From positions 4,679 to 68,678 of the forward strand of contig CALQYT010000003.1 of the NCBI GenBank assembly GCA_943348815.1: a stretch of 64,000 nucleotides of DNA, written 5' to 3'. Source of the stretch: Candidatus Nomurabacteria bacterium. Lineage in GTDB: Bacteria; Patescibacteriota; Minisyncoccia; Phycocordibacterales; SBAW01. Positions 47,712 to 64,000 of this stretch are shown piece by piece (within the stretch, counting starts at the first letter, position 1; every line of letters begins with the position of its first letter). Position numbers and translations under genes: made by a program. The notes below the pieces were generated by a model, which saw only the letters and a list, made by a program, of their open reading frames with translations, ran no database searches and was not told the DNA's origin.

Positions 47712-48602
47712 ATGCGATGGGTATTGGTAAGCGGGATCCTACTCCTCCTAGGAATTGGGGCGTTTTTCTTTGCAAAAACTCGCCCCGCGGCGGAAGAGCC
47801 TGGGTGGCGAGCCATGATCGAAAAGGCCGGGCCGGAAAAAGCATACGCACAGTTTGCCGAATCGGTGGCTGCAGAGCCCCCCGGCGAGCAACACACCGCC
47901 GCACACAACTTTGGCGATGCGCTTTACGAGGAAAAAGGGCTCGCCGGACTGTCCGCGTGTGATAGTCGTTTTGGATACGGCTGCTTCCATCAATTGGTTG
48001 GACGAGTTATTGCAGAGCATGGACTCGGGGCAATTGCAGAAATACAACATGTGGTCGGTACATCGAGCGACTCCAACCACGGCGTTGGCCACGGCATACT
48101 CGCCTACCTCGGATACACACTGCCCAAACTCAAACAAGCACTCGCCGTTTGCCCAAGTGGTGGCCCGGCGCCGTGGGATTGCTCGGGGGGTGTGTTTATG
48201 GAATACAACTTCCGTACCATGCTCGGAGAGGGGCCGCGACTACCGGGCAACAATCCGTACGCTCCCTGCGATGCGCTCGAGGGTGTTCAAAAAACAGCTT
48301 GCACTTTTTGGCTGCCCGAATGGTGGGACCGTACTACGTTTGGAGCCGCCGCGACCTCAAGCCAGTCGTTTGCAAACATTGGCGCATACTGCGACGGACT
48401 CCCCAAGGCAGTGCACGGTGCATGTTACGGAGGCACCGGGTACGCGGCTGCCGCTGCGACAGAACAAAATGCGGAAGTCTCGACGTATCTTTGTAACGCA
48501 AGTACAGCCAATACTGCCTATCGTACACTTTGCAATCACTGCGCGGCATATGTCTTTACTACCCGCGGCAAACGTCCAAGCTGCACTCTAAACGAGTTTT
48601 AA
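47712..48602 (+). CDS. Cys/His-rich membrane-anchored protein, distant fifth member of the tandem paralog family at 56.4-61.0 kb
   Basis: N-terminal TM, then QHTAAHNFGDALY (H-x3-H-x2-GD), FGYGCFHQL and SNHGVGHGIL motifs shared with the four tandem paralogs. Many paired Cys. Confidence 0.55.
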   Translation: MRWVLVSGILLLLGIGAFFFAKTRPAAEEPGWRAMIEKAGPEKAYAQFAESVAAEPPGEQHTAAHNFGDALYEEKGLAGLSACDSRFGYGCFHQLVGRVIAEHGLGAIAEIQHVVGTSSDSNHGVGHGILAYLGYTLPKLKQALAVCPSGGPAPWDCSGGVFMEYNFRTMLGEGPRLPGNNPYAPCDALEGVQKTACTFWLPEWWDRTTFGAAATSSQSFANIGAYCDGLPKAVHGACYGGTGYAAAAATEQNAEVSTYLCNASTANTAYRTLCNHCAAYVFTTRGKRPSCTLNEF

Positions 48603-50322: not shown

Positions 50323-50763
50323 ATGCAGACGTTAAAATACGGACTCGGATTACTAGCGGGGGCAGGAGTCATATCTTTTGTTCTGTTCATGGCCTTCGAA
50401 AATTACTACACCTATATACGAGTGCAGGGACAACTGCATAGACTTGAGGCATCACTCTCAGTCGCCCGGATACTCACGTACGGTATTGTTGATTCTGTCG
50501 ATATATCAAAAAAAACACTCACCGTTCGTATGCCAGACCCGTATGAAGACGGGGCGCAACGACTGGTTGTGATATATCTGTTGCCGGAAACCTATATAGC
50601 CCGACAGACACTACTTGGTGACAAAAAGATGTATACCGGTCTCTCCCCCCAGACACCCACACCGCTTGCGGACATTGCCCCTGGTGAGCGAGTCGCCGTA
50701 TTTGTGCAGCAAAATAACGAGCGATTTGTGGCACTAATCGTACTAGTCGGCAATCCACTATGA
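50323..50763 (+). CDS. Small TM-anchored protein (paralog b)
   Basis: GLGLLAGAGVISFVLFMAF TM, then ~110 aa. It begins 3 nt after the paralog a stop. Confidence 0.45.
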   Translation: MQTLKYGLGLLAGAGVISFVLFMAFENYYTYIRVQGQLHRLEASLSVARILTYGIVDSVDISKKTLTVRMPDPYEDGAQRLVVIYLLPETYIARQTLLGDKKMYTGLSPQTPTPLADIAPGERVAVFVQQNNERFVALIVLVGNPL

Positions 50764-51392
50764 GTGCTCATATCCTACCGGCCTTTGACTCTCCCCAAGC
50801 GCTCAAACCGTTCTTTCCCACAGAAAAAGAGCCTTGGGAAACACTGCCCTTGTTTGTCAAGAAAAAAAACGTCCAATTACTGTTGGGCGTCTTTCCTCTG
50901 TGGACACAGCTTGAGCGTTCTTTTTCTCGTACCGTTCGAACGCTTGGTGTGCCGGTGCTGTCCCTACCCTCGGAACGTATAGCGCTCGTTCCTACACTTG
51001 TCCGCGACCTGCCTGTAGGAAAAATAGTGGCGACAAGCCGCGACCTCCCCGCACTCGAGCGTATGAGTAGCACTCATGCCCCTATGCGCGATCTTATATT
51101 CCACATCGTCCTTACTCCCGAGGAACGTCCAATAATCTCGAGTCTCCAGATTGTTTTTGAAGTCCATCTTGTGCCCGGTGCGGTTGGGCTTTTCCAGTGC
51201 GAAGCACTCGCGAGCAAAAAAGAACTTCTGTTTCACCTGAGTAGCCGTTTTTACTGGGAGTTTGAGGACCAAACACTACTAGTTACCGATGACGCTCGTA
51301 CGGCTCGGTTTTCCCAAGCCCCGCTGCCTCTCCATTACAAAAAAAGAAACGCTCCGTGTCCGTGTGGACACCAGGTAGTCTTGCTTATATGA
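50760..51392 (+). CDS. Hypothetical protein (210 aa)
   Basis: It overlaps neighbours by 4 and 37 nt, consistent with operon packing. No recognisable domain. Confidence 0.4.
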   Translation: MSAHILPAFDSPQALKPFFPTEKEPWETLPLFVKKKNVQLLLGVFPLWTQLERSFSRTVRTLGVPVLSLPSERIALVPTLVRDLPVGKIVATSRDLPALERMSSTHAPMRDLIFHIVLTPEERPIISSLQIVFEVHLVPGAVGLFQCEALASKKELLFHLSSRFYWEFEDQTLLVTDDARTARFSQAPLPLHYKKRNAPCPCGHQVVLLI

Positions 51393-52588
51393 CGGAACTC
51401 GAAAAAGCTTGCACAGCCGCCGACAGAGCCCGGAGTAACCGCTGCTCCTCTTTTTATCGCGATCTCTATCAAGGATTGGCCCAACCTATTACTCCCGAGC
51501 AATGGACCCAAGTCCCCTTCCTTACTAAATCAGACATACTGCGAGTGCCTTTTATGCAGCGATTATTTGTCCCGTGGGAGAAGGTCGATACTATTGCACT
51601 TACGTCGGGGACTACGGGGAGCGGAGTATGCATACTGCCTCGACGGTTTTCTTTAGACTTGCCCTCGGATTTTCCGTATTACAAAGATCATCGGTTAATG
51701 ACCTTCTACTACTACTCCTATCGAATCCGTGCCGAATCAAAAACAATTTCTGGCGATCAGACTCGCTATGAGGCGAGCGCACAGCTTGCGGCACAAGCAG
51801 GCGTGGACGCACTCCACGGATCAATATCGCAATTGATAGCATTTGCTCCTCATGCAAAACGTGCGGGCCTCATTTCGAACATTCGCGCGCTATGTTCGAC
51901 CGGGGAGAGGATAAGCAAGCTCCAGCTCAATACCATACGCACTCTCTATCCTGGTGCCGAATTGCGCACGGTGTATGGTATGCAAGAAGTAAGTGTGGCC
52001 GGCTACTCTCCTCTCGTGCCACGGCCCGATCGCCCGCTCGCAGTAAAGCTCGTCCCCCACTATTATTTTGAAATACTGACTGAAGAAGGCCTTGTGGCGG
52101 ACAGCGGCACCGGCGAGCTGGTAGTGACCTCGCTTGAGGAAGATCCTTTCCCACTGATGCGCTATCGTACGGGCGATAAAGTCTCTGTGTTCGAAGACCG
52201 GGGCGAAAGACTTTTGGAGCCTCTCTCGCGGGTTGAAGAAGAACGGGTCCGTATCGGAGGAGGAGAGATAGTGTTGGACGAATTAGAGCGAGCTATTACT
52301 AAAACATTTGGAGAAAGTGTCGCCGACTTTGAGTGCACGGTAAAAGAGACTCTAGACGGAGAGACTATTCGTAGTGGCCTTGATCTGACCTTGTTTATAA
52401 AAAACAATCCTCCCCCGTGGTCGTCTACCGATGCAGCGCTCAAGCTCGCCACCGAGCTTCAGGCTAATCAACAGCGTACCTATCTTGACGGTATAGTGGC
52501 GGGACTCTATACCCCCATTACTTGCAGCTTCATGCTAGTGGGAGGCACACAGCTCCAAAAAAGGCGCCATCTAAGGGACGGGCGATAA
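51389..52588 (+). CDS. PaaK/CapK/F390-synthetase-like adenylate-forming enzyme
   Basis: LTSGTTGSG (AMP-binding P-loop) and YRTGD motifs. The length (~400 aa) and motif spacing are typical of the phenylacetate-CoA ligase-like family. Confidence 0.65.
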   Translation: MTELEKACTAADRARSNRCSSFYRDLYQGLAQPITPEQWTQVPFLTKSDILRVPFMQRLFVPWEKVDTIALTSGTTGSGVCILPRRFSLDLPSDFPYYKDHRLMTFYYYSYRIRAESKTISGDQTRYEASAQLAAQAGVDALHGSISQLIAFAPHAKRAGLISNIRALCSTGERISKLQLNTIRTLYPGAELRTVYGMQEVSVAGYSPLVPRPDRPLAVKLVPHYYFEILTEEGLVADSGTGELVVTSLEEDPFPLMRYRTGDKVSVFEDRGERLLEPLSRVEEERVRIGGGEIVLDELERAITKTFGESVADFECTVKETLDGETIRSGLDLTLFIKNNPPPWSSTDAALKLATELQANQQRTYLDGIVAGLYTPITCSFMLVGGTQLQKRRHLRDGR

Positions 52589-53377: not shown

Positions 53378-54268
53378 ATGTGGAAGATTGTTTTGGGACT
53401 GTGTCTTGCCGTGGCAGGGGTAACGTCTGCCGCAGCAGACCCGTATCCAACCAGGCCCATTCGGATCATCGTACCGTATGGGCCGGGGGTTGCCCCCGAC
53501 GTCATCGTGCGGCTCTACGTCGACGTGATGAAAAGCTCGGGGATACACTTCTTCATCGAAAACCAGCCTCAGGCGTATGGAGTGGTGGGGACCCGCAATC
53601 TCTATCACGCCGAGCCGGACGGCTATACGATGGGAGTCATCTCTGCGAGCCTGCTGTACCCGCACAAAGAGTACGACGCTCAAAGGTTTGAGTACGTGAG
53701 CGTCGTATCGCGTGACAAAATGTTCCTGGTAGTACCAAGCGCCTCACCGGTGCGGACGCTCCAAGAACTTATCGCGAGCGTACCCAAAAACTACAGTGCC
53801 CCCAATCCTGGGGCACAGCGTTTTGCGGCGGAGTTTATGCGCGTAACCGGGCTCACTGCCGTACAACTTCCCTACCGAGGGGGTTCTGCGGCGGCGGTGC
53901 TCGACCTTAAGGTCGGACGCGTCGACTACACCTTCCTCTTCGGTTTCCAGGTCAAACAGGGAATCGATGAGGGAATCTTGCGCCCGCTTGCGGTGGTGGA
54001 CCCGGAACGAAGCTTGTTCATCCCGGAAGTACCAACAATGAACGAGGCGCTCCTCAAAGCCGGCCGGTCTACACTGCCGGTGCGCTATATACAAATGGGG
54101 GTGGTGTTTCCTCCGGGTACACCTCCGACGTACGTACAAAAACTGGCGCAACTTATTTGTACGGCATCGCGCGACGAGGAGTTGCGCGAAAGGCTCCGAA
54201 AAACGTGGGTGGAAGCGATCTGCTCTACCCCAAAGGAGTACCGCGCTTTTGCGTCTGGCTTCCAATGA
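53378..54268 (+). CDS. Bug/TctC-family periplasmic substrate-binding protein (orphan; no tctA/tctB nearby)
   Basis: Signal peptide, then the DPYPTRPIRIIVPYGPG signature, GYTMGV and LPYRGG motifs characteristic of the TctC/Bug family. Confidence 0.75.
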   Translation: MWKIVLGLCLAVAGVTSAAADPYPTRPIRIIVPYGPGVAPDVIVRLYVDVMKSSGIHFFIENQPQAYGVVGTRNLYHAEPDGYTMGVISASLLYPHKEYDAQRFEYVSVVSRDKMFLVVPSASPVRTLQELIASVPKNYSAPNPGAQRFAAEFMRVTGLTAVQLPYRGGSAAAVLDLKVGRVDYTFLFGFQVKQGIDEGILRPLAVVDPERSLFIPEVPTMNEALLKAGRSTLPVRYIQMGVVFPPGTPPTYVQKLAQLICTASRDEELRERLRKTWVEAICSTPKEYRAFASGFQ

Positions 54269-54335: not shown

Positions 54336-55895
54336 ATGCGTACGATTTTCTATACGGCCACGCTTGGTTTTATTGCTTTGGCAGCCTGGCTTATTTTTAA
54401 CAAACAACACGCAGCTGCTTTTTTTTCAGATGTCTTGGAAGCACAGCGTATCTCGGAGACTGTCTCCGTGGGAGGTAGTCCGTACCAAGTGAAAGACGGC
54501 AATGTGTGGCAAAAAGACCGAGTCATTACCGGAGAAGAAGCACTCCCCATTCTTAAACTTACCTACGCGCTCACGCTCGCAAAGCGACACCCTCTTTTTT
54601 CGCTTGAAGGCAGCGACCCATGGGTGCTTGCCACCGCCACCGAAATGCTTGCCCGCGTCCAAGAAGGATACGTCGAGCTCCAATCGACGGCAGCGGAGCA
54701 GGCCTTAGTCCGCAATCTATATCCTATTAATTTTTTGAGCAACGAAGCTCAGACAGAAATTGCCCGCCGCGCCTTCATAGAGTCCCCATCGGACCGAACA
54801 TACCAACGGTACGACGCATCACTCACCCGGACACTCGTGGCGTATAAAAAAGATTTGTCCGTATTTCGAACTGCCTTTACCAAAGCGGTACCTTCCTTGC
54901 ACCGATCTTACTTCACTCTCGAGGGCATCACCGGAACGAGCAGCGCAATCGCATCACTCGATAGTTTGGCCTTGGGTGCACAAAAAACTGCTGCTCTACT
55001 CGATCGACGGACACAATGTCTACGAGACGCAACGTATCTATGTGACTCTCAAGATATACAACTCCCGCAACTGTATGCCCCCGAATCCGCCGCGGTGTCC
55101 AGCAATGCTCCACCCGCAGTGAGTTCTGTCGTTAATGAATATAAGCTTCAACGAACGAGAACATCTCCTGCTATAATCGTGGCCCTCGCACAGAGCGACT
55201 GCGCGCGCGGCCTTGCCGCGCCATATTATTTTGCAGTATATGAGGAGCGACCTTTGCGGTTGAGCGCCATCGATTTTATTAATGACATTCTTTTTCTTCC
55301 GATACGCGATGGGGGAGAAGATTCACTTTTCCATTATTTTATGAGTCGAGGAGCATCCTACTTTCCTCTCGTGCCTACGGCTCCCTACCAGTGTCCATCA
55401 GCGGGAAGCGACTTTAGTCGTATCTACGCGACCCTACAGGTCGCACGCACTCTAGGAAAACAGCCGGGGGTATTATCGGAAGATGACGTTATATCCTCGT
55501 TCAAAACAGCCTTAGACCACGCGGAGACAAACGGCGGTACGCAAAAAGACACGCTCACGGCACTTACTCTGATGCTCCACGACAAAAGTGCTGGGCTAGA
55601 TTGGTTGGTAGAAGAGATAGCGCGCTTTGGGGAAACCAACTTGCGAATGAAGCAGGGCGGTGTACCTATAGCGACAGCTCCGGACTTTTTGTTTCTTGCT
55701 GAAAGTAGTTTCTTTTCTCTGTTTCAGGGGTATAACCTTTCGGTAGGTCAAGGGGTTGGGGTATCTCCCGCGACCGCCGACCCACTCAGACAATACCAAA
55801 AAAACATACACTCGTGGCTCAAAGCGTCGGACGCCACCCGTGATGAAATGAACGTGAGTTTGCGTTTATTTGTTTCGATACATAAACAAATATAA
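54336..55895 (+). CDS. Membrane-anchored hypothetical protein (519 aa)
   Basis: N-terminal TM (TATLGFIALAAWLIF), then a large soluble domain with several Cys. No recognisable domain. Confidence 0.45.
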   Translation: MRTIFYTATLGFIALAAWLIFNKQHAAAFFSDVLEAQRISETVSVGGSPYQVKDGNVWQKDRVITGEEALPILKLTYALTLAKRHPLFSLEGSDPWVLATATEMLARVQEGYVELQSTAAEQALVRNLYPINFLSNEAQTEIARRAFIESPSDRTYQRYDASLTRTLVAYKKDLSVFRTAFTKAVPSLHRSYFTLEGITGTSSAIASLDSLALGAQKTAALLDRRTQCLRDATYLCDSQDIQLPQLYAPESAAVSSNAPPAVSSVVNEYKLQRTRTSPAIIVALAQSDCARGLAAPYYFAVYEERPLRLSAIDFINDILFLPIRDGGEDSLFHYFMSRGASYFPLVPTAPYQCPSAGSDFSRIYATLQVARTLGKQPGVLSEDDVISSFKTALDHAETNGGTQKDTLTALTLMLHDKSAGLDWLVEEIARFGETNLRMKQGGVPIATAPDFLFLAESSFFSLFQGYNLSVGQGVGVSPATADPLRQYQKNIHSWLKASDATRDEMNVSLRLFVSIHKQI

Positions 55896-56384
55896 TACGA
55901 AAGCGCCAAGCAATGCTCCCAAGAGCCCACTTGCGATTACAAACAGGTACGCAAGCGGAACCGTTTGAGATACTGTAAAAGGAAAAACAGCGGCAGCAAT
56001 CTCGTCTCCGGTAACGGTTCTGAAACTCACCTGAAGCGAATACGATCCTCCTTGTTCAAAAGTATAGAGCAACGTGGTGGGCCCGAGCGGTTGGCGTCGG
56101 ATACCTGTTGCAAGTAGAGTATTTTTGTCCTGCGAAACGACGCGTGTCCATACCTCGTCAAATTTGGCCGGCTTTGTTTTAACGGTATCACTCCAGAGAC
56201 TAAAATCGAACCGCGCGCTTTGTCCCGCTGTAATACTGATTGGATCGTACCCAACATCAATGAAGTAGGTAGTACCTACTGGCTGCTCCCACGAAGCGCC
56301 AGTGCTATGAGCACTCACATACAAAGGAGCGCACAAAAGAGCAGCTGCAACGAGAGAGAAAATTATATTCATAAACTTGACCAT
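55866..56384 (-). CDS. Secreted, C-terminally TM-anchored beta-sandwich-like protein, possibly YcnI/CopC-like
   Basis: Signal peptide ...LYVSA, then a mature N-terminus starting with His (HSTGASWEQ). About 120 aa, then a C-terminal TM LAYLFVIASGLLGALLGAFVLYLF and a basic tail. Confidence 0.4.
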   Translation of the reverse strand: MVKFMNIIFSLVAAALLCAPLYVSAHSTGASWEQPVGTTYFIDVGYDPISITAGQSARFDFSLWSDTVKTKPAKFDEVWTRVVSQDKNTLLATGIRRQPLGPTTLLYTFEQGGSYSLQVSFRTVTGDEIAAAVFPFTVSQTVPLAYLFVIASGLLGALLGAFVLYLFMYRNK

Positions 56385-57547
56385 ACGGCCCAGGCTGCTT
56401 CGCACGACTGGGTAGCCAACGGAGCCAGCACACACGAAGTTTGGATTTTTTCCTTAGACCAAAAGTCGGCCAGTTGTTGAAACGCCGCTTCAAAACAGTG
56501 TGTGTGCCACTCGTCCGGCAGCACCTTGCTCGAGCAAAAGGCGTACGCACCTTTTTGTTTATCGTCCGGTGTCCCTGCTTGTACGAGCCCACTTACGTAG
56601 GAACCTAAGCAATATTCTTGCAAGTCGGGGGCAAGCCCCAAACAGGCCGGGACCGCCTGGGCTGCAGTATTGAGCTGCCGCGCAAACATAGCTGCAAAGG
56701 TAGAGATTGTTCGCTGCAGATACTTGCTCGGTGTGTAGCGATACGCCAAATCAATTGCCTCTTGTAGTGTTTTGTCCGGAGTGAGGTTAAACACCACCGA
56801 AGCTAAGTTGGCGTAACACTCCTCCGGCACGCCGTCTGCGCCCAACTCTCTACAGATTTTAAAAGGGTCTTGTTTATCTATCTTTTTTGCATAGTTTTCA
56901 TCATACGAAATGCCGTTGTATGCGCCGCCAGCACATTTAACGAAATCCTCGTCGGTCTCCGCCGCCTGACGACACAAAGAAAGAGTCTGCTGCACTATTG
57001 CCACTGGGTCGCTCCACTCCCGGACGTCGTGGTGTATCACCGAACCATGTCCTACGCCGTGGAAGCATGCAGCACGGGAATAACTTTTTTGTCCGTTGGA
57101 GTCGTCACCTTGCATGGTGGTGCAAAACTCGCCTATCTCCTTGCCTACCTCTTTGCGGTTGCCTGACTCAAATAAAAATTCAGTGACAAATCCGTGGAAG
57201 AAACCAAAATCACAGACCTGCATATCGGGTGTAAAGGAGAGCCTCTCGCCTGCTTTAAACGATGTATAGGCTCGCTCCCCCACTTGGTGCGCAAAGGCGT
57301 GGCACATCTGTATAAAATCAGGCGACTGTTTCGAAAATATTTGGAGCTGTTGCAGAGCTTGAGGTATCTTATCTTCGACAAGCAGCTCCGAGACGGCAGA
57401 GTTCCAACATTGATACTTTGCGGAGAGACTTCCGCTGCACGTAACACTCCCTTGGGAAGCAAACACCCACCCACCCAACCCAACCCCCACTAACATAACC
57501 GGGACCATCCAAAACACTTTCTTCATCTCTACACTATATCTCAACAT
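56369..57547 (-). CDS. Cys/His-rich membrane-anchored protein, tandem paralog 1
   Basis: N-terminal TM, then CHAFAHQVGERAY, CDFGFFHGFV and CFHGVGHGSV motifs plus about 20 Cys. Confidence 0.6.
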   Translation of the reverse strand: MLRYSVEMKKVFWMVPVMLVGVGLGGWVFASQGSVTCSGSLSAKYQCWNSAVSELLVEDKIPQALQQLQIFSKQSPDFIQMCHAFAHQVGERAYTSFKAGERLSFTPDMQVCDFGFFHGFVTEFLFESGNRKEVGKEIGEFCTTMQGDDSNGQKSYSRAACFHGVGHGSVIHHDVREWSDPVAIVQQTLSLCRQAAETDEDFVKCAGGAYNGISYDENYAKKIDKQDPFKICRELGADGVPEECYANLASVVFNLTPDKTLQEAIDLAYRYTPSKYLQRTISTFAAMFARQLNTAAQAVPACLGLAPDLQEYCLGSYVSGLVQAGTPDDKQKGAYAFCSSKVLPDEWHTHCFEAAFQQLADFWSKEKIQTSCVLAPLATQSCEAAWAVWSSL

Positions 57548-58695
57548 GACGGTTGATACTGGGCCGGAAGCAACCTACAGAAGCCTCCTCGACCCTGCGC
57601 ATCTCCAAACAACTGTCGTGCGTCGCGCGCCAAACCACTGTAACATTCTTGGGCGACGCTTCCCTGCGCTCGGGCACAAAAAGAAACCGCCTCTGCTGCT
57701 GCCGATCGACTCTCCTCGACTATTGCCTGCGCGCTGCCTTCATAACACATCCCTTGCCAAGCCACAGGAAAATTATCACACGCATGCTGTGCCTCTGTTG
57801 CATCACCAAGTGACAGGCGACCGATAATCGCAGAGATGCCCCGCCAGCAGTACTCCTCTTCTTGCGCATTAGGATAGCCCGAGCAGTACGCCTGCACGCC
57901 TATACCACGCAGCAACTCTTCGCGGAAGAGCGGCCAGCTTTCTTCCCTGCACGAGCCGATATACTCAGGATCTTTAAACGTCGCACAAAACTGCCGCACC
58001 GTTGTTTTGGTCGGTTTTGTTTTCATCCGAGCAATCAACTGATAGTCATCGGGCTCAAGCGGTTGATAAATTTGCATAAACACGCCTTGGATACAGACCC
58101 GCTGCGCGTCTTTAGGAAGGGTCCGGCGGCACAAATCGAGCGCCTGCGGCAAATTGGCATCGGTAATAAAGTCGTATAAGTGCCCCATGCCGTGCTCGCA
58201 CACCGCTTGGTCAAAGGGTGTGGGCTGCCACCCTGCGTGCGGTTTGCAGGCGAGAGAGAAATCAGGGATTAGTTTTTCTATGGTGGCCACATCCAGCACT
58301 TCGGAGCGGAAGCGTCCGCCCACCACACCATGCAGGTACCCGTTCGAACAAAGACTGTCGGGCGGATTATACGCTAAATCATCGAGCCATCTTGTAGGAT
58401 CTTCGGCCACTACCCGCTCGCCTATTTTGTGCCCAAGCACATGACAAAATTGATAGCTCGGATCTTGCGCACGCAACGCTCGTACCACGTCAAAAAGCTG
58501 CGCCACCCCGTGCTGTGGGTATAGTTGTGGCACCAACGATTCGTAACACACCTCATGTGTCTTTTCTTTGGCACATTGCGCGGCAAACCCGGCAGCGACC
58601 GCGCGCGCGTCAAACGCGCTTGCCTTGAGAATGGAGAGGGTTGCTCCACCGCATAATATAAGTATCAAGGCGAGGACGGCAATTTTTAGACGCAT
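57541..58695 (-). CDS. Cys/His-rich membrane-anchored protein, tandem paralog 2
   Basis: CHVLGHKIGERVV, CSNGYLHGVV and CEHGMGHLYD. It overlaps its neighbours by 7 and 10 nt. Confidence 0.6.
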   Translation of the reverse strand: MRLKIAVLALILILCGGATLSILKASAFDARAVAAGFAAQCAKEKTHEVCYESLVPQLYPQHGVAQLFDVVRALRAQDPSYQFCHVLGHKIGERVVAEDPTRWLDDLAYNPPDSLCSNGYLHGVVGGRFRSEVLDVATIEKLIPDFSLACKPHAGWQPTPFDQAVCEHGMGHLYDFITDANLPQALDLCRRTLPKDAQRVCIQGVFMQIYQPLEPDDYQLIARMKTKPTKTTVRQFCATFKDPEYIGSCREESWPLFREELLRGIGVQAYCSGYPNAQEEEYCWRGISAIIGRLSLGDATEAQHACDNFPVAWQGMCYEGSAQAIVEESRSAAAEAVSFCARAQGSVAQECYSGLARDARQLFGDAQGRGGFCRLLPAQYQPSC

Positions 58696-59837
58696 AGATT
58701 TTGTTTATACCGATCGGGAACACTGGTGCATACCTCTCGCAAACCCACGCTACCATAAAACTGTTTTGTCGCTGAGAGAAGCGTGCTATAGCAGGCGGGT
58801 AGCAGGCTCGCTTGTATATCGGGCGAGCCGCACAGCAGCAGCATGTCGGTATACTCCGCCCCGGGAGTGCCAAACTCTTGTATACCTACAACTACTCCCG
58901 TGATACAAGCATCGGCATCATGGGTAAGAGCGCTGCAGACACCCGAAACTTCTTTCGGTGAGACGATCATTTTTCTACCGCGCGCAGTACTGAAGTACGT
59001 CCCCGCAACACCGCGCACCGCCAACTCTCGATAGTGCGGGTCGGAAATCTCTTCGGTAAATGCTATCGCCTTGCCGAAGTGGTAGTTGGCCGCAAAAGTG
59101 GCGAGCGTATTCATTTGATCGTAACAGGCATCTTTTTCGGTCGTAGTAAAGTTTGGCGAACCACAGAGACTAAAGGGCTCTCCACCTATAGTGAGCTGGT
59201 ACTTAGCATCGCGATACATAAGCGCAACTGCATTAAACACACCCGAGGCGCAGCGGTAGGCGTGGTCTGTGTTCCCACCTGCGACTTCTTTGCATAAAGC
59301 GAGCCCAGGTGCGGCAATCTTTTGCGCGTCGCCCCACACTCTAGGGTCGGTGCCATCGGTCACTCCATGTCCAACACCGTGATAACAGGCGCCCTCAGCG
59401 TAGCCTGGTGGGTTTGGCACGACCGTACCTGCGTAGCTACAAAATGCGCGCGCCTCGTCAAAATTATTATTTTCATAGATAAGCTCCTCCATAAACCCGT
59501 GATAAAAGCCGTACCCGCAATAGCTTGTTTTATCACTGAGTTCTACCCTGCCGGTGGCATGAAATTCTTTATACGCCTCTTTGCCAAGTTCGTGCGTCTC
59601 GGCGTGACACGTTGCCAAATAACCCGGGTCGGCGTTGTACGCCTCGGCGAGCAGATCGAATGCCGCGCTGAGCCCATGGGTTTTTAGTGTTGCGTCGATG
59701 GCTTTGTTGTAACAATTGTTCTTGTCTTGTACGTCTTGTTGGCATACCAAAAGTGGGTCGGCACGCATGTGCCACGCATACACGGCTCCTCCAACCACCA
59801 AAATACACCCTGCCGTAATAAAAATTATTTTTTGCAC
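58686..59837 (-). CDS. Cys/His-rich membrane-anchored protein, tandem paralog 3
   Basis: CHAETHELGKEAY, CGYGFYHGFM and CYHGVGHGVT. Confidence 0.6.
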   Translation of the reverse strand: MQKIIFITAGCILVVGGAVYAWHMRADPLLVCQQDVQDKNNCYNKAIDATLKTHGLSAAFDLLAEAYNADPGYLATCHAETHELGKEAYKEFHATGRVELSDKTSYCGYGFYHGFMEELIYENNNFDEARAFCSYAGTVVPNPPGYAEGACYHGVGHGVTDGTDPRVWGDAQKIAAPGLALCKEVAGGNTDHAYRCASGVFNAVALMYRDAKYQLTIGGEPFSLCGSPNFTTTEKDACYDQMNTLATFAANYHFGKAIAFTEEISDPHYRELAVRGVAGTYFSTARGRKMIVSPKEVSGVCSALTHDADACITGVVVGIQEFGTPGAEYTDMLLLCGSPDIQASLLPACYSTLLSATKQFYGSVGLREVCTSVPDRYKQNLCV

Positions 59838-61015
59838 GTCGGTTGATAGTAAGCGGGCAAAAGAACGCAGACCTCTGTGCGCCCAGGCAGATATTGCGCG
59901 ATCGCATGGGTGAGCTCATCCCAACAGGCACTTTGTGAGCCAGTCGGCGCGTCGGTACAAAAACGTACCGATGCCTGCGGATTGTTTTCTCCGCCCCAAA
60001 ATACCGATTGCAATGCTTCGCGGACGCACGCCTCTTGGCCCTCGTGAGTTTGTGCGAGCGTGCACCACTGTGCCGCCCGTGTGTATTCCTCGTCACCGAA
60101 CTGGTCGACGTGCCGTATATCCCGTGCGCCTGCGATCGTCACGAACTCCTTACCAAAACCGCCATAGCACGCGCGGCGTAATTCCGGGCGCCCTGCAGGC
60201 ACTGCATCGCAAAATCCAAATGCTTTAGGGAACGTGGCTGGATCGGGCGACGTAAGTTCTGCACCCGCTTGGGCAAAGAGCTCGGGCGTCAAATACTCAA
60301 AACAAAATGTTTTTGCACTATCGGGGATCAAGGACCCCAAACAGAGCGCCGTCGGATCGTGCGGGTTAAGATACTTTTCTCGCGCAACGACCCACGCACC
60401 GTGGTCGTGCCCGCCGCCGCCCATGAGTTCCATCACTGCGCCGCCGACGCACTGTGTATATTGTTCGTCGTTGTATTGTGACGTCCCCATGCGCTTGCAA
60501 AAAGAGACCGTCTTTTGTAAGTCGTATCCGAAGTATGCAAACACTCCGTGTCCTAAACCGTGGTAACACATGGTGTACGCACCCAAACCGCCGGGGGCCT
60601 GGCGACAAGCATCGTCTATTTTTTTGAGCGTTGCGTCGCTCGTACCAAATTCGTTGAGTGCGCCTATCACCACCGCGTGTGAGCAGGCGTTACGGAAATC
60701 TTGCGTGCAGTAGGCTATCCCGCCCATACCCTGCTGTTTGTACAACTCATCCCCCACGGCGTGGCCGAGCAAGTGCAAGTCGGTATTAGACGGGAGGTTG
60801 GCGATTTTCAAAACAGCAAAAGCATATACGGCGCCCTTGTCCTTAGCGAGGGCAACAAAACGATCCGATAACTCTTTAAAGCTTTCAACATTCTTACCTA
60901 TACTCTGTGCCTCGGCATACGGCAGCGGATGCGAGCGCCCCAAAAGCATCAACACACCAACCGTAAGCACCGCGGCGGCTATAAGAATTTTTTTTATCCG
61001 CGGCGTCTCAACCAC
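59825..61015 (-). CDS. Cys/His-rich membrane-anchored protein, tandem paralog 4
   Basis: LHLLGHAVGDELY, CSHAVVIGAL and CYHGLGHGVF. Confidence 0.6.
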   Translation of the reverse strand: MVETPRIKKILIAAAVLTVGVLMLLGRSHPLPYAEAQSIGKNVESFKELSDRFVALAKDKGAVYAFAVLKIANLPSNTDLHLLGHAVGDELYKQQGMGGIAYCTQDFRNACSHAVVIGALNEFGTSDATLKKIDDACRQAPGGLGAYTMCYHGLGHGVFAYFGYDLQKTVSFCKRMGTSQYNDEQYTQCVGGAVMELMGGGGHDHGAWVVAREKYLNPHDPTALCLGSLIPDSAKTFCFEYLTPELFAQAGAELTSPDPATFPKAFGFCDAVPAGRPELRRACYGGFGKEFVTIAGARDIRHVDQFGDEEYTRAAQWCTLAQTHEGQEACVREALQSVFWGGENNPQASVRFCTDAPTGSQSACWDELTHAIAQYLPGRTEVCVLLPAYYQPTCKK

Positions 61016-61749
61016 ACTATCAACAATACCGCAGCTCCAAGAACTACGACAGAGGGGAGCGGATTACCGACCATCGGTCGCGCTCCTCCAAAGAGATATT
61101 CTCCCTTGTTAGCAAGCTGCGTAGGCCCTTTTTCAACCTCAGGGATAACCGGGTTAGCAAGAATGTAGGGATCATGTCGGTTCCCTGTTAGTTGCCAGGA
61201 GACTTTACCTCCAGCCACCCCACCTCCGATCGTAAATTGGTTATTTTTCTCTTCCTTTTTTATATAGAGGTTCGGCATGGTGGCCCCCACTGGTTTTAGC
61301 TGGTAGCGAGCATCTCGGTTAAGTAAATCCCAATAGGCGGGGAGTATAACCACCGCCTCGCCTTTGGTGTCCAGTGTGGCGATCCCGTCGTAGAGATTTT
61401 TTGAATCAGGCGACTCAACAAACGAGTGGTAGAGGAGTTTGTTAGCCGCATCGATGGGGTCGTCGATCACAAACGAGCCGGAGCCTTTAGAGAGGTTACC
61501 AACACTGAGAGCCGATGCACCGCTTTGAGCTACTTGAACATTTTTAGTAAAGGTTTTTTGGTACAGGCCTTGATAATACGATTGGTAGTAAGACTGATAA
61601 TACGATTGGTAGTAAGACTGATAATACGATTCGTAGTAGGACTGATAATACGATTCCCCGTACGTTGCAAGTGCGAAGAAAGGTTGTGTTAAGAAGGTTG
61701 CGCCAAAAAGAAAAGTAACAAGAAGGGCGAAGGTGGTCTTTATTTGCAT
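60994..61749 (-). CDS. Secreted protein with a (SYYQ)n repeat, a conserved family-B domain, and a C-terminal TM plus RRRG tail
   Basis: Signal peptide, ESYYQSYYESYYQSYYQSYYQSYYQSYYQ, then FVIDDPIDAANKLLYHSFVESPDSKNLYDG...NLYIKKEEKNNQF...VSWQLTGNRHDPYILANP. It ends with a hydrophobic helix plus RRRG. Confidence 0.6.
   Translation of the reverse strand: MQIKTTFALLVTFLFGATFLTQPFFALATYGESYYQSYYESYYQSYYQSYYQSYYQSYYQGLYQKTFTKNVQVAQSGASALSVGNLSKGSGSFVIDDPIDAANKLLYHSFVESPDSKNLYDGIATLDTKGEAVVILPAYWDLLNRDARYQLKPVGATMPNLYIKKEEKNNQFTIGGGVAGGKVSWQLTGNRHDPYILANPVIPEVEKGPTQLANKGEYLFGGARPMVGNPLPSVVVLGAAVLLIVWLRRRG
61566..61657 (-). repeat. About 3.75 tandem copies of a 24-nt unit encoding YYQSYYQS
   Basis: TTGGTAGTAAGACTGATAATACGA repeated head-to-tail with one variant copy (TTCGTAGTAGGACTG...). 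Confidence 0.7.
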
Positions 61750-62288
61750 AGTGGTTCAAAAATACACTCACCTTTAGGTACCGACTGCGTTGGGCCCTTT
61801 TCCACCTCGACCGGTTGCGGATGGGCCAGAATGTATGGGTCGTGGCGCGTACCAGTAACTTGCCAGGACACGGTGCCGCCAGGAGCGCCTCCTCCAATAC
61901 TAAACTGGTTATTCTTTTCCTCCTGCTTGATATAGAGGTTGGGCATGGGCTGCTCTAATGCAAAAAATTGATAACGCGCATCTTTGTTTAGAGCATCCCA
62001 ATACGCCGGCAGCACGATAGTCACTTCCCCTTTAGAATCGAGCGTTGCAGTACCGTCATACAAGTTTTCAGGAGCATTAGACTCTACGAAGGAGTGATAC
62101 AAGATTTTGTTAGCGGGATCGAGCGGGTGATCGATAGCAAAAGTGCCGGAGGTTTTGGTGAGGGTACCCACGACCGTGAGATTACCTTTTATCTTAACGC
62201 TCCCCGTCACATTGATCGTCGCCGCAAGACCTACCAACGGCAAACACAACAAAAACAGCACGATGCTTTGGTAGAGTTTATTTCGCAT
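61740..62288 (-). CDS. Secreted family-B paralog 2
   Basis: Signal peptide (LYQSIVLFLLCLPLVGLAA), then FAIDHPLDPANKILYHSFVESNAPENLYDG...NLYIKQEEKNNQF...VSWQVTGTRHDPYILAHP. Confidence 0.6.
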   Translation of the reverse strand: MRNKLYQSIVLFLLCLPLVGLAATINVTGSVKIKGNLTVVGTLTKTSGTFAIDHPLDPANKILYHSFVESNAPENLYDGTATLDSKGEVTIVLPAYWDALNKDARYQFFALEQPMPNLYIKQEEKNNQFSIGGGAPGGTVSWQVTGTRHDPYILAHPQPVEVEKGPTQSVPKGECIFEPLCK

Positions 62289-62895
62289 AGAGATCGGGGA
62301 AGAGATAATCGCCCTGTTGGACAAGGGTATCCGGACCTTTCTTGACCTCAGGCACTATCGGGTTGGCAAGAATAAATGGATCATGCCGAATACCGGTTAC
62401 TTGCCAAGAAATCTTGCCGCCCGGTGCGCCGCCGGCAATTTTGAGTACCGGCGAGCCAAATAGGCCGAAGAACTTTCTACCCACTTCGGAAGTAAGGTGC
62501 AAATTCGGCATCGGTTGTCCTATCGGCGTTGCAAGGTAGCGAAAGTCTTTATTGAGCGCGAGGAAATATTCTGGCAGTTCGATAGTGACTTCTCCGTTGT
62601 TATTGAGTGTTTCGAGACCATCATAAATATTTTTAACCTCTGGCGACTCAACATTGAAGTGATAAAGCAACTTGTTTTTTGGATCAAGTGGATCGTCGAT
62701 GACGAAGCTTTTAGCGCCGGCAGTGACCGACCCCGTGACATTGGTGGAGGTACCCAAAAAGCTTGTACTGTAGCTTAGTGTAATGACGTTGTGACTAAAA
62801 TCGGCCTGTGCATCACAGGGGAGCGATCCGGCGGCAAAAGCACACGCCGTCATTACGAACACCGACCAAAAGATACGCGGGTGAGACATCTTCAT
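62278..62895 (-). CDS. Secreted family-B paralog 3
   Basis: Signal peptide (IFWSVFVMTACAFAAGS), then FVIDDPLDPKNKLLYHFNVESPEVKNIYDG...ISWQVTGIRHDPFILANP. A TATACT -10 lies upstream. Confidence 0.6.
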   Translation of the reverse strand: MKMSHPRIFWSVFVMTACAFAAGSLPCDAQADFSHNVITLSYSTSFLGTSTNVTGSVTAGAKSFVIDDPLDPKNKLLYHFNVESPEVKNIYDGLETLNNNGEVTIELPEYFLALNKDFRYLATPIGQPMPNLHLTSEVGRKFFGLFGSPVLKIAGGAPGGKISWQVTGIRHDPFILANPIVPEVKKGPDTLVQQGDYLFPDLYAK

Positions 62896-62920
62896 CTCTT
62901 CTAGTATACTGTACGACCAT

Positions 62921-63394
62921 ATGGAACAAAAAAGCTTGTGGACTGTTGGGGGGATCCTCCTGTGCGCCGCGGTGGGAGGCATCCTCATTTGGCACCACCT
63001 TTCACAATCTCCTTCCTATACTCCACCCGCACAAGAACCGCCAGGCAAGGGAGTTGTTGGTAACGTAAAGTTAAATAAAGACTCGTACGACACGCTGATC
63101 ACTTACACCGATAGCGGATTTACGCCGAGCGATATCACTATTGCACAAGGCACCCGCGTGCGGTTCTTAAATAACTCTGCGCAAGAAATTTGGCCTGCTT
63201 CGGGTATCCACCCAACCCACACGCTGTATCCCGAAAAAGAAAGTGGCGATTGTTTAGGTAGCTCGTTCGACTCCTGCACCACGCTAGCCAAAGGTGAGTT
63301 TTATGACTTCACCTTCTACTACGTAGGCGCGTGGCCGTACCACGACCACTTGCACGCCTACCAAACCGGCACCATAACGGTTACGGCGAAATAG
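62921..63394 (+). CDS. TM-anchored cupredoxin-like domain protein
   Basis: N-terminal TM, then FTPSDITIAQGTRVRFLNNSAQEIWPASGIHPTH...YDFTFYYVGAWPYHDHLHAYQTGTITV. This is a plastocyanin/azurin-like strand order with a His-rich putative metal site, but no canonical Cys/Met ligands. Confidence 0.4.
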   Translation: MEQKSLWTVGGILLCAAVGGILIWHHLSQSPSYTPPAQEPPGKGVVGNVKLNKDSYDTLITYTDSGFTPSDITIAQGTRVRFLNNSAQEIWPASGIHPTHTLYPEKESGDCLGSSFDSCTTLAKGEFYDFTFYYVGAWPYHDHLHAYQTGTITVTAK

Positions 63395-64000
63395 AAGCTT
63401 TAGCGTTTATTTCAAATCCTGGGTAACTCTTATCCTCTTGGTCGGGACGGAGGTTCGGCCACTTGGCGTTGTCGAAGCGAAGCGCCGAGAGCCGCATCGA
63501 AACCTCGCCCGGCTGGCTCGAAACAATTTTGAGCGTGTTATGCGCTGCGTCTTTTTCGTAATGTACACTGCCGTCGAATGCGGGAGTAAGCGCAACTACC
63601 AAGTCCTTCCAGTTGGTGCCAAAGTCGGTGATTTGGTAAAAGAGCCACACGTCGCTGCCCTTCTCGAGCGAGTTAAAGGAGATCGTGTATTCATACTTGC
63701 CGCTGGCGCCTTTTTGCGAAAGTTCGATGGTCTGCATTACTTCTTCGTGCACGCCAACCGCTGACTGGCCATACGTTGCGTACTTAATGCCATCGATGGT
63801 GTACACCGGGTCGATGGTGGCAACATCGAGTTTGCCCGCTATCTTGATGTCGCCGTAGAAGGTCGAGGTCGCTAAACCAAGCGTCGTCTGGCCGCGGGCG
63901 CCCACAAACAAGCGGTCATTGATTGCAAATTGTTGTGCGGGTGATGAAGTGCCGACGCCCACATAGCCGCTGCTTGCGCCCGTGCCACCAATGACCGAGA
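63381..64000 (-). CDS. Partial CDS (N-terminus lies beyond the window end), hypothetical Gly/Ser-rich then beta-rich protein
   Basis: The reading frame stays open to the window edge (...SVIGGTGASSGYVGVGTSSPAQQFAINDRLFVGARGQ...). The stop is at 63381. Confidence 0.4.
   Translation of the reverse strand, partial: SVIGGTGASSGYVGVGTSSPAQQFAINDRLFVGARGQTTLGLATSTFYGDIKIAGKLDVATIDPVYTIDGIKYATYGQSAVGVHEEVMQTIELSQKGASGKYEYTISFNSLEKGSDVWLFYQITDFGTNWKDLVVALTPAFDGSVHYEKDAAHNTLKIVSSQPGEVSMRLSALRFDNAKWPNLRPDQEDKSYPGFEINAKASISP

What the first reader, a model, noticed from the sequence alone, without database searches (positions are those of the whole stretch)
56369..61015. Four tandem, overlapping paralogs of an unassigned Cys/His-rich membrane-anchored family, with a fifth copy at 47.7 kb
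Four consecutive minus-strand genes of 383-396 aa have start/stop overlaps of 7-13 nt, so they are operon-like and probably translationally coupled. Each has an N-terminal TM anchor followed by an ordered set of motifs: C-H-x3-H-x2-G-(E/D)-x2-Y, then C-x2-G-(Y/F)-x-HG, then C-x-HG-x-GHG, and about 18-22 cysteines in conserved pairs. That pattern suggests a disulfide-rich extracytoplasmic domain with a 4-His cluster. A fifth, more divergent copy (47712..48602) carries the same three motifs. I cannot match the motif set to any protease, hydrolase or metal-chaperone family I know. Recent local amplification of a His-cluster ectodomain suggests either a metal (Cu/Zn) binding or redox function or a diversifying surface or defence role.
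Basis: seen in the sequence. Interest (0 to 1): 0.8.

Follow-up and report, generated by a model that had tools for sequence, protein, structure and literature searches.

The report
Copper-linked His-cluster surface protein array
Four adjacent genes and a fifth nearby encode old, distinct members of a very large uncharacterised family of membrane-anchored helical proteins with five invariant histidines; in ultra-small CPR (Candidate Phyla Radiation) bacteria these genes almost always sit beside, or are fused to, a copper-protein domain (cupredoxin) that has lost its copper-binding cysteine, which points to an undescribed cell-surface metal system.

Summary
Four minus-strand ORFs (396, 383, 384 and 392 aa; overlaps 13, 10 and 7 nt) and a fifth copy at 47712-48602 are homologous. 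The copies are 18-25% identical to each other but 48-59% identical to orthologues in Kaiserbacteria, so they are ancient classes, not a recent amplification. No defence or diversifying signal was found.

In 71 of 78 loci the family lies next to an amicyanin-like cupredoxin domain, and 26% of members are fused to it. In that domain the copper-ligand Cys is Asp (H-D-H). The window operon ends with a small CopC/YcnI-like protein whose mature N-terminus is an invariant His.

Best reading, inferred and not shown: a cell-surface copper-binding or redox module. The family is unassigned, with no described counterpart.

The parts
59825..61015 (-). Family member, class 4 (396 aa). This class occurs exactly once per locus in 45 loci. 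It has L-H-x3-H and C-S-H variants and lacks Cys 32, 42 and 77.
   Evidence: (59% identity to Kaiserbacteria L001 6793-8004)
58686..59837 (-). Family member, class 1 (383 aa). This is the class that carries an N-terminal cupredoxin domain in 65% of its members; here it is unfused. It is the protein that was modelled.
   Evidence: (pLDDT 95)
57541..58695 (-). Family member, class 2 (384 aa). This class is never fused to the cupredoxin domain and is found in 58 loci.
   Evidence: (55% identity to L001 9329-10534)
56369..57547 (-). Divergent family member (392 aa, or 385 aa if it starts at M8). No close orthologue in the sampled loci (27% identity at most).
47712..48602 (+). Fifth copy, class 3 (the short class, about 344 aa; 296 aa here). 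All five His are kept. In related genomes its orthologues lie inside the array.
   Evidence: (34-39% identity to L006, L042, L060, L067)
55866..56372 (-). Last gene of the operon (168 aa; its ATG overlaps the preceding stop as ATGA). It has a signal peptide, an invariant Ala|His junction that would make His the mature N-terminus, an Ig-like beta-sandwich and a C-terminal membrane helix. CopC/YcnI-like.
62921..63394 (+). Stand-alone membrane-anchored cupredoxin-like protein (157 aa) with no Cys ligand. It carries WPAS-x2-HPTH and HDH motifs and is transcribed divergently from the operon.
   Evidence: Cupredoxin_1, E 2.7e-4; family profile against amicyanin, E 3e-8
60994..62988 (-). Three tandem paralogues (236, 194 and 251 aa) that share a 'DHPLDPxNKLLYH' domain. 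They are the first three genes of the same overlapping gene run. Function unknown; whether they belong to the system is uncertain.
   Evidence: (13 loci)
54336..55895 (+). Conserved neighbour (519 aa) with an N-terminal membrane segment and no family assignment. It converges on the end of the operon.
   Evidence: 17 loci

Best explanation
The genes encode distinct, ancient classes of a CPR-wide family. Each protein has an N-terminal signal or anchor helix that should place an all-alpha helical-repeat domain outside the membrane. The even number of cysteines suggests the domain is braced by about eight disulfides.

Three neighbouring helices carry five invariant histidines (HxxxH, H, HxxxH) set among conserved glycines. 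I read this as a buried metal site. No carboxylate is invariant, so copper or zinc is more likely than iron.

The family works together with a cupredoxin domain, either fused to it or encoded nearby. That domain has lost the blue-copper Cys (H-C-H has become H-D-H) but keeps four histidines of its own. The system also includes a membrane-tethered CopC/YcnI-like protein with an N-terminal His.

The most likely function is binding, relaying or using copper for redox chemistry at the cell surface. The different classes would act as non-redundant subunits or steps.

What is shown: homology, array structure, age of the classes, fold class, the invariant residues, and the fusion and neighbourhood link to the cupredoxin domain. 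What is inferred: topology, disulfides, metal binding, the identity of the metal, and any catalysis.
For: Genes and homology:
- Tandem overlapping genes and their homology.

Location and disulfides:
- One N-terminal hydrophobic segment in every member, in the cupredoxin protein and in the 519-aa neighbour.
- A confident all-alpha model.
- The ectodomain Cys count is even in 494 of 520 members, most often 16. Lost cysteines are replaced one helical turn away (C133 to C136 in 63 of 74 cases).
- DsbA or VKOR genes lie beside arrays in 7 of 82 loci.

The His cluster:
- The five His are 91-99% conserved in 514 sequences and invariant in classes 1 to 3. In class 4 the third His is displaced in the profile alignment (C-S-H), where the H113 column reads V or I.

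Link to the cupredoxin domain:
- The domain is present in 71 of 78 loci. 110 of 416 members are fused to it, and 65% of class 1.
- The reverse test also holds: 4 of 4 stand-alone cupredoxin proteins on long contigs lie inside family arrays.
- The domain is homologous to amicyanin (E 3e-8). Its Y-H-D-H aligns with Y-H-C-T of amicyanin and with Y-H-C-H of a NirK (copper nitrite reductase) chain.

The small protein:
- An invariant Ala|His cleavage junction, plus invariant D39 and W75.
- A beta-sandwich with a C-terminal membrane helix.
- Its best structural neighbour is CrdA, which is a member of the CopC/PcoC family.
- The same layout as the copper-binding protein YcnI.
Against: - There is no direct evidence for any metal.
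- I could not inspect model coordinates, so the spatial clustering of the five His and the Cys pairing rest on helix register and parity only.
- The cupredoxin domain lacks the Cys, His and Met blue-copper ligands, and cupredoxin folds without metal exist.
- The gene numbers are uneven: five family genes to one cupredoxin gene in the window.
- No copper pump, copper regulator or known copper enzyme lies in the window or among the conserved neighbours.
- Rare fusions to a GH3 glycosidase and to an esterase point elsewhere.
Confidence: 0.5

Rival explanations
1. The proteins are structural or adaptor proteins of the cell envelope. In this view they are disulfide-braced helical repeats that serve as scaffolds or adhesins, as in Sel1-like or Helicobacter cysteine-rich proteins, and the His cluster holds at most a structural zinc.
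For: - The only fold neighbours are generic solenoids, TPR, PPR, ARM and designed repeat proteins.
- There are many copies per genome, and polyproteins with 5-7 domains exist.
- The window neighbours are surface-type proteins: three 'DHP' proteins, an 1883-aa Gly-rich protein and a tail-fibre-like protein.
- There is a weak internal-repeat signal.
Against: - What is invariant across all classes is a compact His and Gly cluster, not a repeat consensus.
- There is no Sel1, TPR or HEAT match in Pfam.
- A scaffold role does not explain the tight fusion and neighbourhood link to a His-bearing cupredoxin domain.
Confidence: 0.2
2. The proteins are metal-dependent enzymes, hydrolytic or oxidative, that process host or environmental polymers such as glycans, esters or cell wall for these scavenging bacteria. 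The cupredoxin domain would be an accessory module.
For: - One polyprotein joins seven family domains to a GH3 glycosidase domain (E 6e-61). Another member is fused to an Abhydrolase_2 esterase.
- GH3 and Abhydrolase_2 genes also occur as neighbours.
Against: - These links are rare: GH3 in 1 of 82 loci and the esterase in 4 of 82.
- No acid or base residue is invariant across the family.
- There is no fold similarity to alpha/alpha-toroid hydrolases or lyases.
- The long polyproteins could be gene-calling artefacts; this was not checked.
Confidence: 0.12
3. The genes are a recently amplified, diversifying surface or defence family.
For: The tandem arrangement and predicted surface location.
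Against: - Paralogues are 18-25% identical, while orthologues in other genomes are 48-59% identical.
- 97% of 401 members have a closer relative in another genome than in their own array, and no within-array pair exceeds 70% identity.
- There is no PADLOC match.
- The locus lies among core chromosomal genes.
Confidence: 0.03

Closest known systems
Amicyanin/plastocyanin-type cupredoxins (type 1 blue copper proteins); applies to the partner domain
   Same: Significant sequence homology: profile against amicyanin E 3e-8, against plastocyanin E 1e-4. Matches Pfam Cupredoxin_1 in 42 of 57 fused members at E below 0.01; most scores are below Pfam's gathering threshold. Small, and anchored to or fused at the membrane outside the cell.
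   Different: The Cys ligand is Asp. The C-terminal His and Met ligands are absent. The N-terminal His ligand position aligns ambiguously. Four other His are conserved at 96-99% instead (HPxH and HDH). A classical electron-carrier role is therefore doubtful.
Interface copper sites of multicopper oxidases and copper nitrite reductase (the H-C-H triad)
   Same: The domain's Y-H-D-H aligns with Y-H-C-H of a NirK chain, and its G-x-W-x-Y-H-D-H region gives weak matches to the laccase and ascorbate oxidase region around residues 77-116. From textbook knowledge, the two His flanking that Cys bind copper at a domain or subunit interface.
   Different: There is only one cupredoxin domain and no type 1 Cys. 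The partner would be an all-alpha domain, not a second cupredoxin. The laccase-level matches are not significant (E 0.02-0.08). An interface site is a hypothesis only.
YcnI (DUF1775) and CopC of the Bacillus subtilis ycnKJI copper-uptake system; applies to the small last gene
   Same: Signal peptide, then a conserved His as the mature N-terminus, then a beta-sandwich, then a C-terminal membrane helix, exactly as described for YcnI. The best structural neighbour is the CopC-family protein CrdA. A conserved acidic residue lies 17 positions after the His, and a Trp is invariant.
   Different: No Pfam CopC or DUF1775 match at E up to 0.1, and no sequence match in the PDB. No CopD/YcnJ-type membrane importer is nearby.
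EfeO of the EfeUOB iron-uptake system (N-terminal cupredoxin domain plus an all-alpha M75 metal-binding domain)
   Same: The same overall architecture: a Cupredoxin_1-type domain followed by an all-alpha domain predicted to bind metal outside the cytoplasm. The EfeO architecture itself is from my own knowledge.
Helicobacter cysteine-rich proteins (Sel1-like repeats with one disulfide per helical hairpin)
   Same: Secreted or anchored alpha/alpha repeats with regularly spaced Cys pairs. This resemblance is from my own knowledge, together.
   Different: No Sel1 match in Pfam. Not among the structural hits. Those proteins have no invariant His cluster and no cupredoxin partner.
Helical-bundle His sites of type 3 copper proteins (tyrosinase, haemocyanin) and haemerythrin
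   Same: HxxxH motifs on adjacent helices give five or six His around a two-metal site. This analogy is from my own knowledge.
   Different: No sequence or fold match. Only five His are conserved, and none of the carboxylates that haemerythrin needs.

Membership tests
Any curated protein family (Pfam-A, NCBIfam) | A match above the curated threshold | tested here: not met
   The best Pfam and NCBIfam hits for the five copies have E of 0.017 or worse and bit scores far below the cut-offs.
Type 1 blue copper cupredoxin (partner domain) | Sequence homology to the cupredoxin fold family | tested here: met
   Profile A6 against amicyanin E 3.2e-8 and plastocyanin E 1.2e-4. Cupredoxin_1 matches 42 of 57 fused members at E below 0.01, mostly below the gathering score.
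Type 1 blue copper cupredoxin (partner domain) | The His-Cys-His-Met copper ligand set | tested here: not met
   The Cys position is Asp in 92% of sequences. The positions of His95 and Met98 of amicyanin are not conserved.
Multicopper oxidase / NirK | Two or more cupredoxin domains with an H-C-H motif and HxH motifs | tested here: not met
   There is a single cupredoxin domain with H-D-H instead of H-C-H, and matches to laccases have E of 0.02 or worse.
CopC / YcnI copper-binding proteins (small last gene) | A signal peptide followed by a conserved His as the mature N-terminus | tested here: met
   A21 and H22 are invariant in 10 or 11 homologues, directly after a hydrophobic leader. Actual cleavage was not tested.
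CopC / YcnI copper-binding proteins (small last gene) | A CopC- or cupredoxin-type beta-sandwich | tested here: inconclusive
CopC / YcnI copper-binding proteins (small last gene) | A sequence match to Pfam CopC or DUF1775 | tested here: not met
   No such hit at E up to 0.1, and no PDB sequence hit.
CopC / YcnI copper-binding proteins (small last gene) | Copper(II) binding | not testable with these tools
   This needs purified protein with its native N-terminus.
EfeO (cupredoxin domain plus M75 domain) | A C-terminal Peptidase_M75 (imelysin-like) domain with an HxxE site | tested here: not met
   No M75 hit in Pfam and no such chain among the fold matches.
Sel1-like / Helicobacter cysteine-rich repeat proteins | The Sel1 repeat signature | tested here: not met
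   No Sel1 or TPR match at E up to 1.
Alpha-solenoid (helical repeat) architecture | Stacked helical hairpins; the nearest structures are repeat proteins | tested here: met
Anti-phage defence systems (PADLOC) | A match to any defence-protein model | tested here: not met
   No hits for nine proteins of the locus.

The most novel reading that the evidence does not exclude
The all-alpha domain and the Cys-free cupredoxin domain together form a new kind of multi-copper centre. Five His from three helices of the helical domain would combine with the His pair that flanks the former copper-Cys position (H-D-H), plus the HPxH motif of the cupredoxin domain. Together these give eight or nine histidine ligands at a domain interface, much like the trinuclear cluster of multicopper oxidases. 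The CopC/YcnI-like protein would load the copper. That would make this an undescribed class of extracellular copper oxidase or oxygen- and metal-handling enzyme, widespread in CPR bacteria, which are thought to have almost no redox machinery.
Probability: 0.15. Interest if true: 0.9.

Novelty: categorically new. Interest (0 to 1): 0.72.

Why it matters
CPR/Patescibacteria make up a large part of bacterial diversity, have tiny genomes, and most of their surface proteins have no known function. This family spans more than 6000 sequence clusters. It can occupy up to 14 consecutive genes, roughly 17 kb of a genome that I assume, without measuring it here, to be about 1 Mb.

Linking the family to a modified cupredoxin domain and a CopC/YcnI-like protein turns an anonymous gene array into a testable hypothesis about metal or redox chemistry at the cell surface of these bacteria.

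It also raises a caution. CPR proteins annotated as 'plastocyanin' or 'cupredoxin' have been proposed as electron donors to nitrite reductase (PMC5581439). If those proteins are of this type, they lack the copper-binding Cys and may not be electron carriers. I did not check whether they are the same proteins.

If a His-only metal centre in a disulfide-braced helical repeat is confirmed, it would be a new metalloprotein design.

Tried and rejected
- Fold search against the AlphaFold database (afdb50) was not available. Fold comparison therefore covers solved structures only.
- Model coordinates are not exposed. I could not measure Cys-Cys or His-His distances.
- Covariation of Cys presence gave one strong pair (C42 with C77, phi 0.93) and weaker pairs (301/311, 370/382). 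It is confounded by subfamily structure, and most Cys are invariant, so the disulfide map stays open.
- A first iterative cupredoxin profile drifted into the fused family. I replaced it with a profile limited to the domain.
The nearest DNA in hand (48-59% amino-acid identity) is also saturated, so I did not compute it.
- The weak polysaccharide-deacetylase/NodB similarities do not align the histidines. I dismissed them as chance.
- LanC-like, HD-domain, haemerythrin and tyrosinase ideas came from memory of their motifs. No sequence or fold support appeared.
- Literature searches found no description of the family.
- Consensus promoter and terminator scans were uninformative.
- I used both structure-prediction jobs, on the 383-aa protein and on the small protein. 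A cupredoxin-fused member could therefore not be modelled.


Full report
**1. The observation**

ORF listing reproduces the four minus-strand genes exactly: 59825-61015 (396 aa), 58686-59837 (383), 57541-58695 (384) and 56369-57547 (392). It also reproduces the plus-strand copy at 47712-48602 (296 aa). Stop/start overlaps are 13, 10 and 7 nt.

The five proteins are truly homologous. BLASTP gives 5e-37 and 4e-16 for two of the most distant pairs. They are only 18-25% identical. In the five-way alignment 17 columns are invariant, among them five His and seven Cys.

- There are 16-19 cysteines per protein (12 in the fifth copy), not 18-22.
- Five His are conserved, not four.
- The three motifs are a family consensus that individual copies depart from.
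- Two of the overlaps depend on the start codon chosen.

The overlapping run is also longer than reported. Eight co-directional genes from 62988 to 55866 overlap by 47, 10, 22, 13, 10, 7 and 4 nt. The last is a 168-aa gene whose ATG overlaps the stop of the 392-aa gene (ATGA).

**2. Size and distribution of the family**

No Pfam, NCBIfam or PADLOC model matches. A profile finds no solved structure by sequence.

A word-indexed search found 279 homologues, all 'hypothetical'. Those that carry a name are from Kaiserbacteria, Sungbacteria and Parcubacteria. An exhaustive profile search of 1.84 billion cluster representatives found 6167 clusters at E up to 1e-3 and 4227 at E up to 1e-10. These include polyproteins with five to seven copies of the domain.

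A scan of one genome per species returned 74 loci from many CPR lineages: Kaiser-, Nomura-, Sung-, Doudna-, Yanofsky-, Davies-, Adler- and Colwellbacteria, Microgenomates and others. A few bulk-submitted genomes are labelled Gammaproteobacteria or Verrucomicrobiia; I did not verify those labels.

The window itself is ordinary CPR chromosome. It carries DNA polymerase III alpha, gyrase B, tRNA synthetases, a release factor, a split transketolase, GAPDH and aldolase.

**3. Old classes, not recent copies**

I called ORFs in all loci and searched them with family profiles. This gave 416 family ORFs in 78 loci, in arrays of 1 to 14 genes.

Among 401 members in 75 non-redundant loci:
- the best identity to another member of the same locus has a median of 30% and never exceeds 70%;
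- the best identity to a member of another genome has a median of 53%;
- 97% have a closer relative elsewhere than in their own array.

Single-linkage clustering at 38% identity gives four large classes, and four of the five window copies represent one class each:

| Class | Members / loci | Window copy | Note |
|---|---|---|---|
| 1 | 127 / 73 | 58686-59837 | 65% fused to cupredoxin |
| 2 | 75 / 58 | 57541-58695 | never fused |
| 3 | 60 / 38 | 47712-48602 | short form, about 344 aa |
| 4 | 45 / 45 | 59825-61015 | exactly one per locus |

The 392-aa protein belongs to no large class.

A Kaiserbacteria contig (L001) shows the same gene order as the window, with orthologues at 48-59% identity. 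This refutes recent amplification and argues that the copies are not redundant.

**4. Structure**

AlphaFold2 with a 61-sequence alignment gives mean pLDDT 95 and pTM 0.90 for the 383-aa protein. The model has an N-terminal helix (residues 2-24) followed by about 19 helices and no strands.

**5. Conserved chemistry**

In 514 aligned sequences, sixteen Cys columns are conserved at 80% to about 100%. H78, H82, H113, H153 and H157 are conserved at 91-99%. All five His are invariant in classes 1 to 3. In class 4 the third His sits in a shifted C-S-H context.

The His lie on helices 71-95, 102-123 and 146-159, as two i/i+4 pairs plus one single His. They sit among conserved Gly and aromatic residues (C-H-x3-H-x2-G; C-G-x-G-F-Y-H-G-F; C-Y-H-G-x-G-H-G). 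From helix register alone I infer that they sit at about the same height in an inter-helix cavity. No Asp or Glu is invariant across the family, which by general coordination chemistry favours copper or zinc over iron or manganese.

The ectodomain Cys count is even in 494 of 520 sequences, most often 16. When C133 is missing, a Cys appears at 136 in 63 of 74 cases. When C77 is missing, a Cys appears at 100 in 40 of 40 cases. Each protein has a single N-terminal hydrophobic segment. DsbA or VKOR genes lie beside arrays in 7 of 82 loci. Together these point to an extracytoplasmic, fully disulfide-bonded domain. The pairing scheme is unresolved.

**6. The partner domain**

About a quarter of family members are roughly 490 aa long. 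They carry a 100-residue domain between the membrane segment and the helical domain. 42 of 57 such proteins match Pfam Cupredoxin_1 at E below 0.01.

A profile limited to this domain finds it in 151 ORFs: 110 fused and 41 stand-alone proteins, mostly of 100-180 aa. It is present in 71 of 78 loci. The window has a stand-alone copy at 62921-63394, divergent from the operon. In class 1, 65% of members are fused; class 2 and class 4 members never are.

In the reverse direction, four stand-alone cupredoxin proteins chosen from long contigs all lie inside arrays of 3 to 9 family genes.

The domain consensus is GF-P ... G-x-x-V-x-F ... W-P-A-S-x2-H-P-x-H ... F-D-P ... G-x-W-x-Y-H-D-H ... G-x-I-x-V. 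The W, P, A, S, the four His and the D are conserved at 92-100%.

The profile matches amicyanin at E 3e-8 and plastocyanin at 1e-4. Y-H-D-H aligns with Y-H-C-T of amicyanin and with Y-H-C-H of a NirK chain. So the blue-copper Cys has become Asp, and the downstream His and Met ligands are gone, while the two residues flanking the old Cys position are conserved His. In multicopper oxidases and nitrite reductase those flanking His bind copper at a domain or subunit interface (textbook knowledge). This is the basis for the more speculative interface-site reading.

**7. The last gene of the operon**

The 168-aa protein has ten detectable homologues and occurs in 27 of 78 loci. The Ala|His junction after the leader is invariant, as are D39, Y42, W75 and R77. 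It is the only invariant His in the protein.

The layout of signal peptide, N-terminal His, beta-sandwich and C-terminal membrane helix is that of B. subtilis YcnI. YcnI binds Cu(II) through its N-terminal His, a Glu 23 residues later and a nearby Trp (PMC8424229). There is no sequence-level membership.

**8. Other neighbours**

Clustering 1262 neighbouring genes shows, besides the above:
- the 519-aa membrane-anchored protein (17 loci);
- an AMP-binding-like protein (16 loci);
- the three 'DHP' paralogues (13 loci).

None has an informative family match. No copper pump, copper regulator, permease or known copper enzyme recurs. Rare fusions and neighbours include a GH3 glycosidase and an Abhydrolase_2 esterase.

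**9. Synthesis**

*Shown:* a conserved, ancient, multi-class array of unassigned helical proteins with signal or anchor segments and an invariant five-His, sixteen-Cys core. It is tightly coupled, by fusion and by neighbourhood in both directions, to a Cys-free amicyanin homologue. It is often closed by a protein with the YcnI layout.

*Inferred:* extracellular location, disulfide bracing, a copper (or zinc) site, and cooperation between classes.

I put 0.5 on a cell-surface copper-binding or redox module. I put 0.2 on a mainly structural role, 0.12 on a polymer-processing enzyme and 0.03 on the diversifying or defence idea. The most novel reading not excluded is an interface multi-copper centre built from the helical His cluster and the cupredoxin H-D-H and HPxH motifs (probability 0.15).

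**10. Novelty**

No literature describing the family was found in four searches. CPR 'cupredoxins' have been mentioned only as presumed electron donors to NirK (PMC5581439). I rate the family and its module as categorically new in the sense that no described family or system accommodates it. Its function remains an inference.

Noticed in passing
window 60994-61749, 61740-62324, 62278-62988 (-): Three tandem paralogues share a conserved domain (F-x-I-D-H-P-L-D-P-x-N-K-L-L-Y-H ... V-S-W-Q-x-T-G-x-R-H-D). They have no Pfam or PDB match. They overlap each other and the family array, and lie next to such arrays in 13 loci. The 251-aa copy carries a run of tandem YYQS/YYES repeats.
   Followed up: partly
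window 54336-55895 (+): A 519-aa protein with an N-terminal membrane segment and no family match. It converges on the end of the operon, with 3' ends overlapping by 30 nt, and is conserved next to arrays in 17 loci.
   Followed up: partly
window 51356-52588 (+) and 50760-51392 (+): An AMP-binding-like 410-aa protein (Pfam E 2.8e-6, below threshold) recurs near arrays in 16 loci. Just upstream lies a 210-aa ORF ending in C-P-C-G-H, which resembles a 273-aa neighbour in other loci.
   Followed up: no
window 41050-46701 (-): A giant 1883-aa ORF, rich in Gly, Ser and Thr, with an N-terminal membrane segment. It looks like a cell-surface protein. The gene at 46723-47904 next to it has a bacterial Ig-like surface domain.
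   Followed up: no
window 63381-63962 (-): A tail-fibre-like protein fragment (G-V-G-T-S-S-P motif) that runs off the window. Its cluster occurs in 9 loci near arrays. One related locus (L082) has a Peptidase_S74 gene in the same position.
   Followed up: no
window 53378-54268 (+): A TctC-family solute receptor (E 7e-34) in a CPR genome. The syntenic Kaiserbacteria contig has a DctP-type receptor nearby instead.
   Followed up: no
window 58686-59837 (-); public protein P0001: The public gene call starts 18 codons late (GTG at V19) and cuts the membrane helix. Full-length homologues support the longer start.
   Followed up: yes
window 62921-63394 (+): The window's cupredoxin-like protein has an insertion of about 15 residues containing two Cys (E-K-E-S-G-D-C-L-G-S-S-F-D-S-C) in place of the usual F-D-P loop. 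Kaiserbacteria relatives share it.
   Followed up: partly
proteins P0131 (3580 aa) and P0209 (2143 aa); no window coordinates: Polyproteins with seven and five family domains. P0131 also carries a GH3 glycosidase domain and LRV/HEAT repeats. Whether these are real genes or gene-calling artefacts was not checked.
   Followed up: partly
loci L012, L019, L031, L040, L046, L063, L068: Bulk-submitted genomes labelled Verrucomicrobiia or Gammaproteobacteria carry 2 to 14 family genes. The labels look doubtful for a family otherwise confined to CPR.
   Followed up: no
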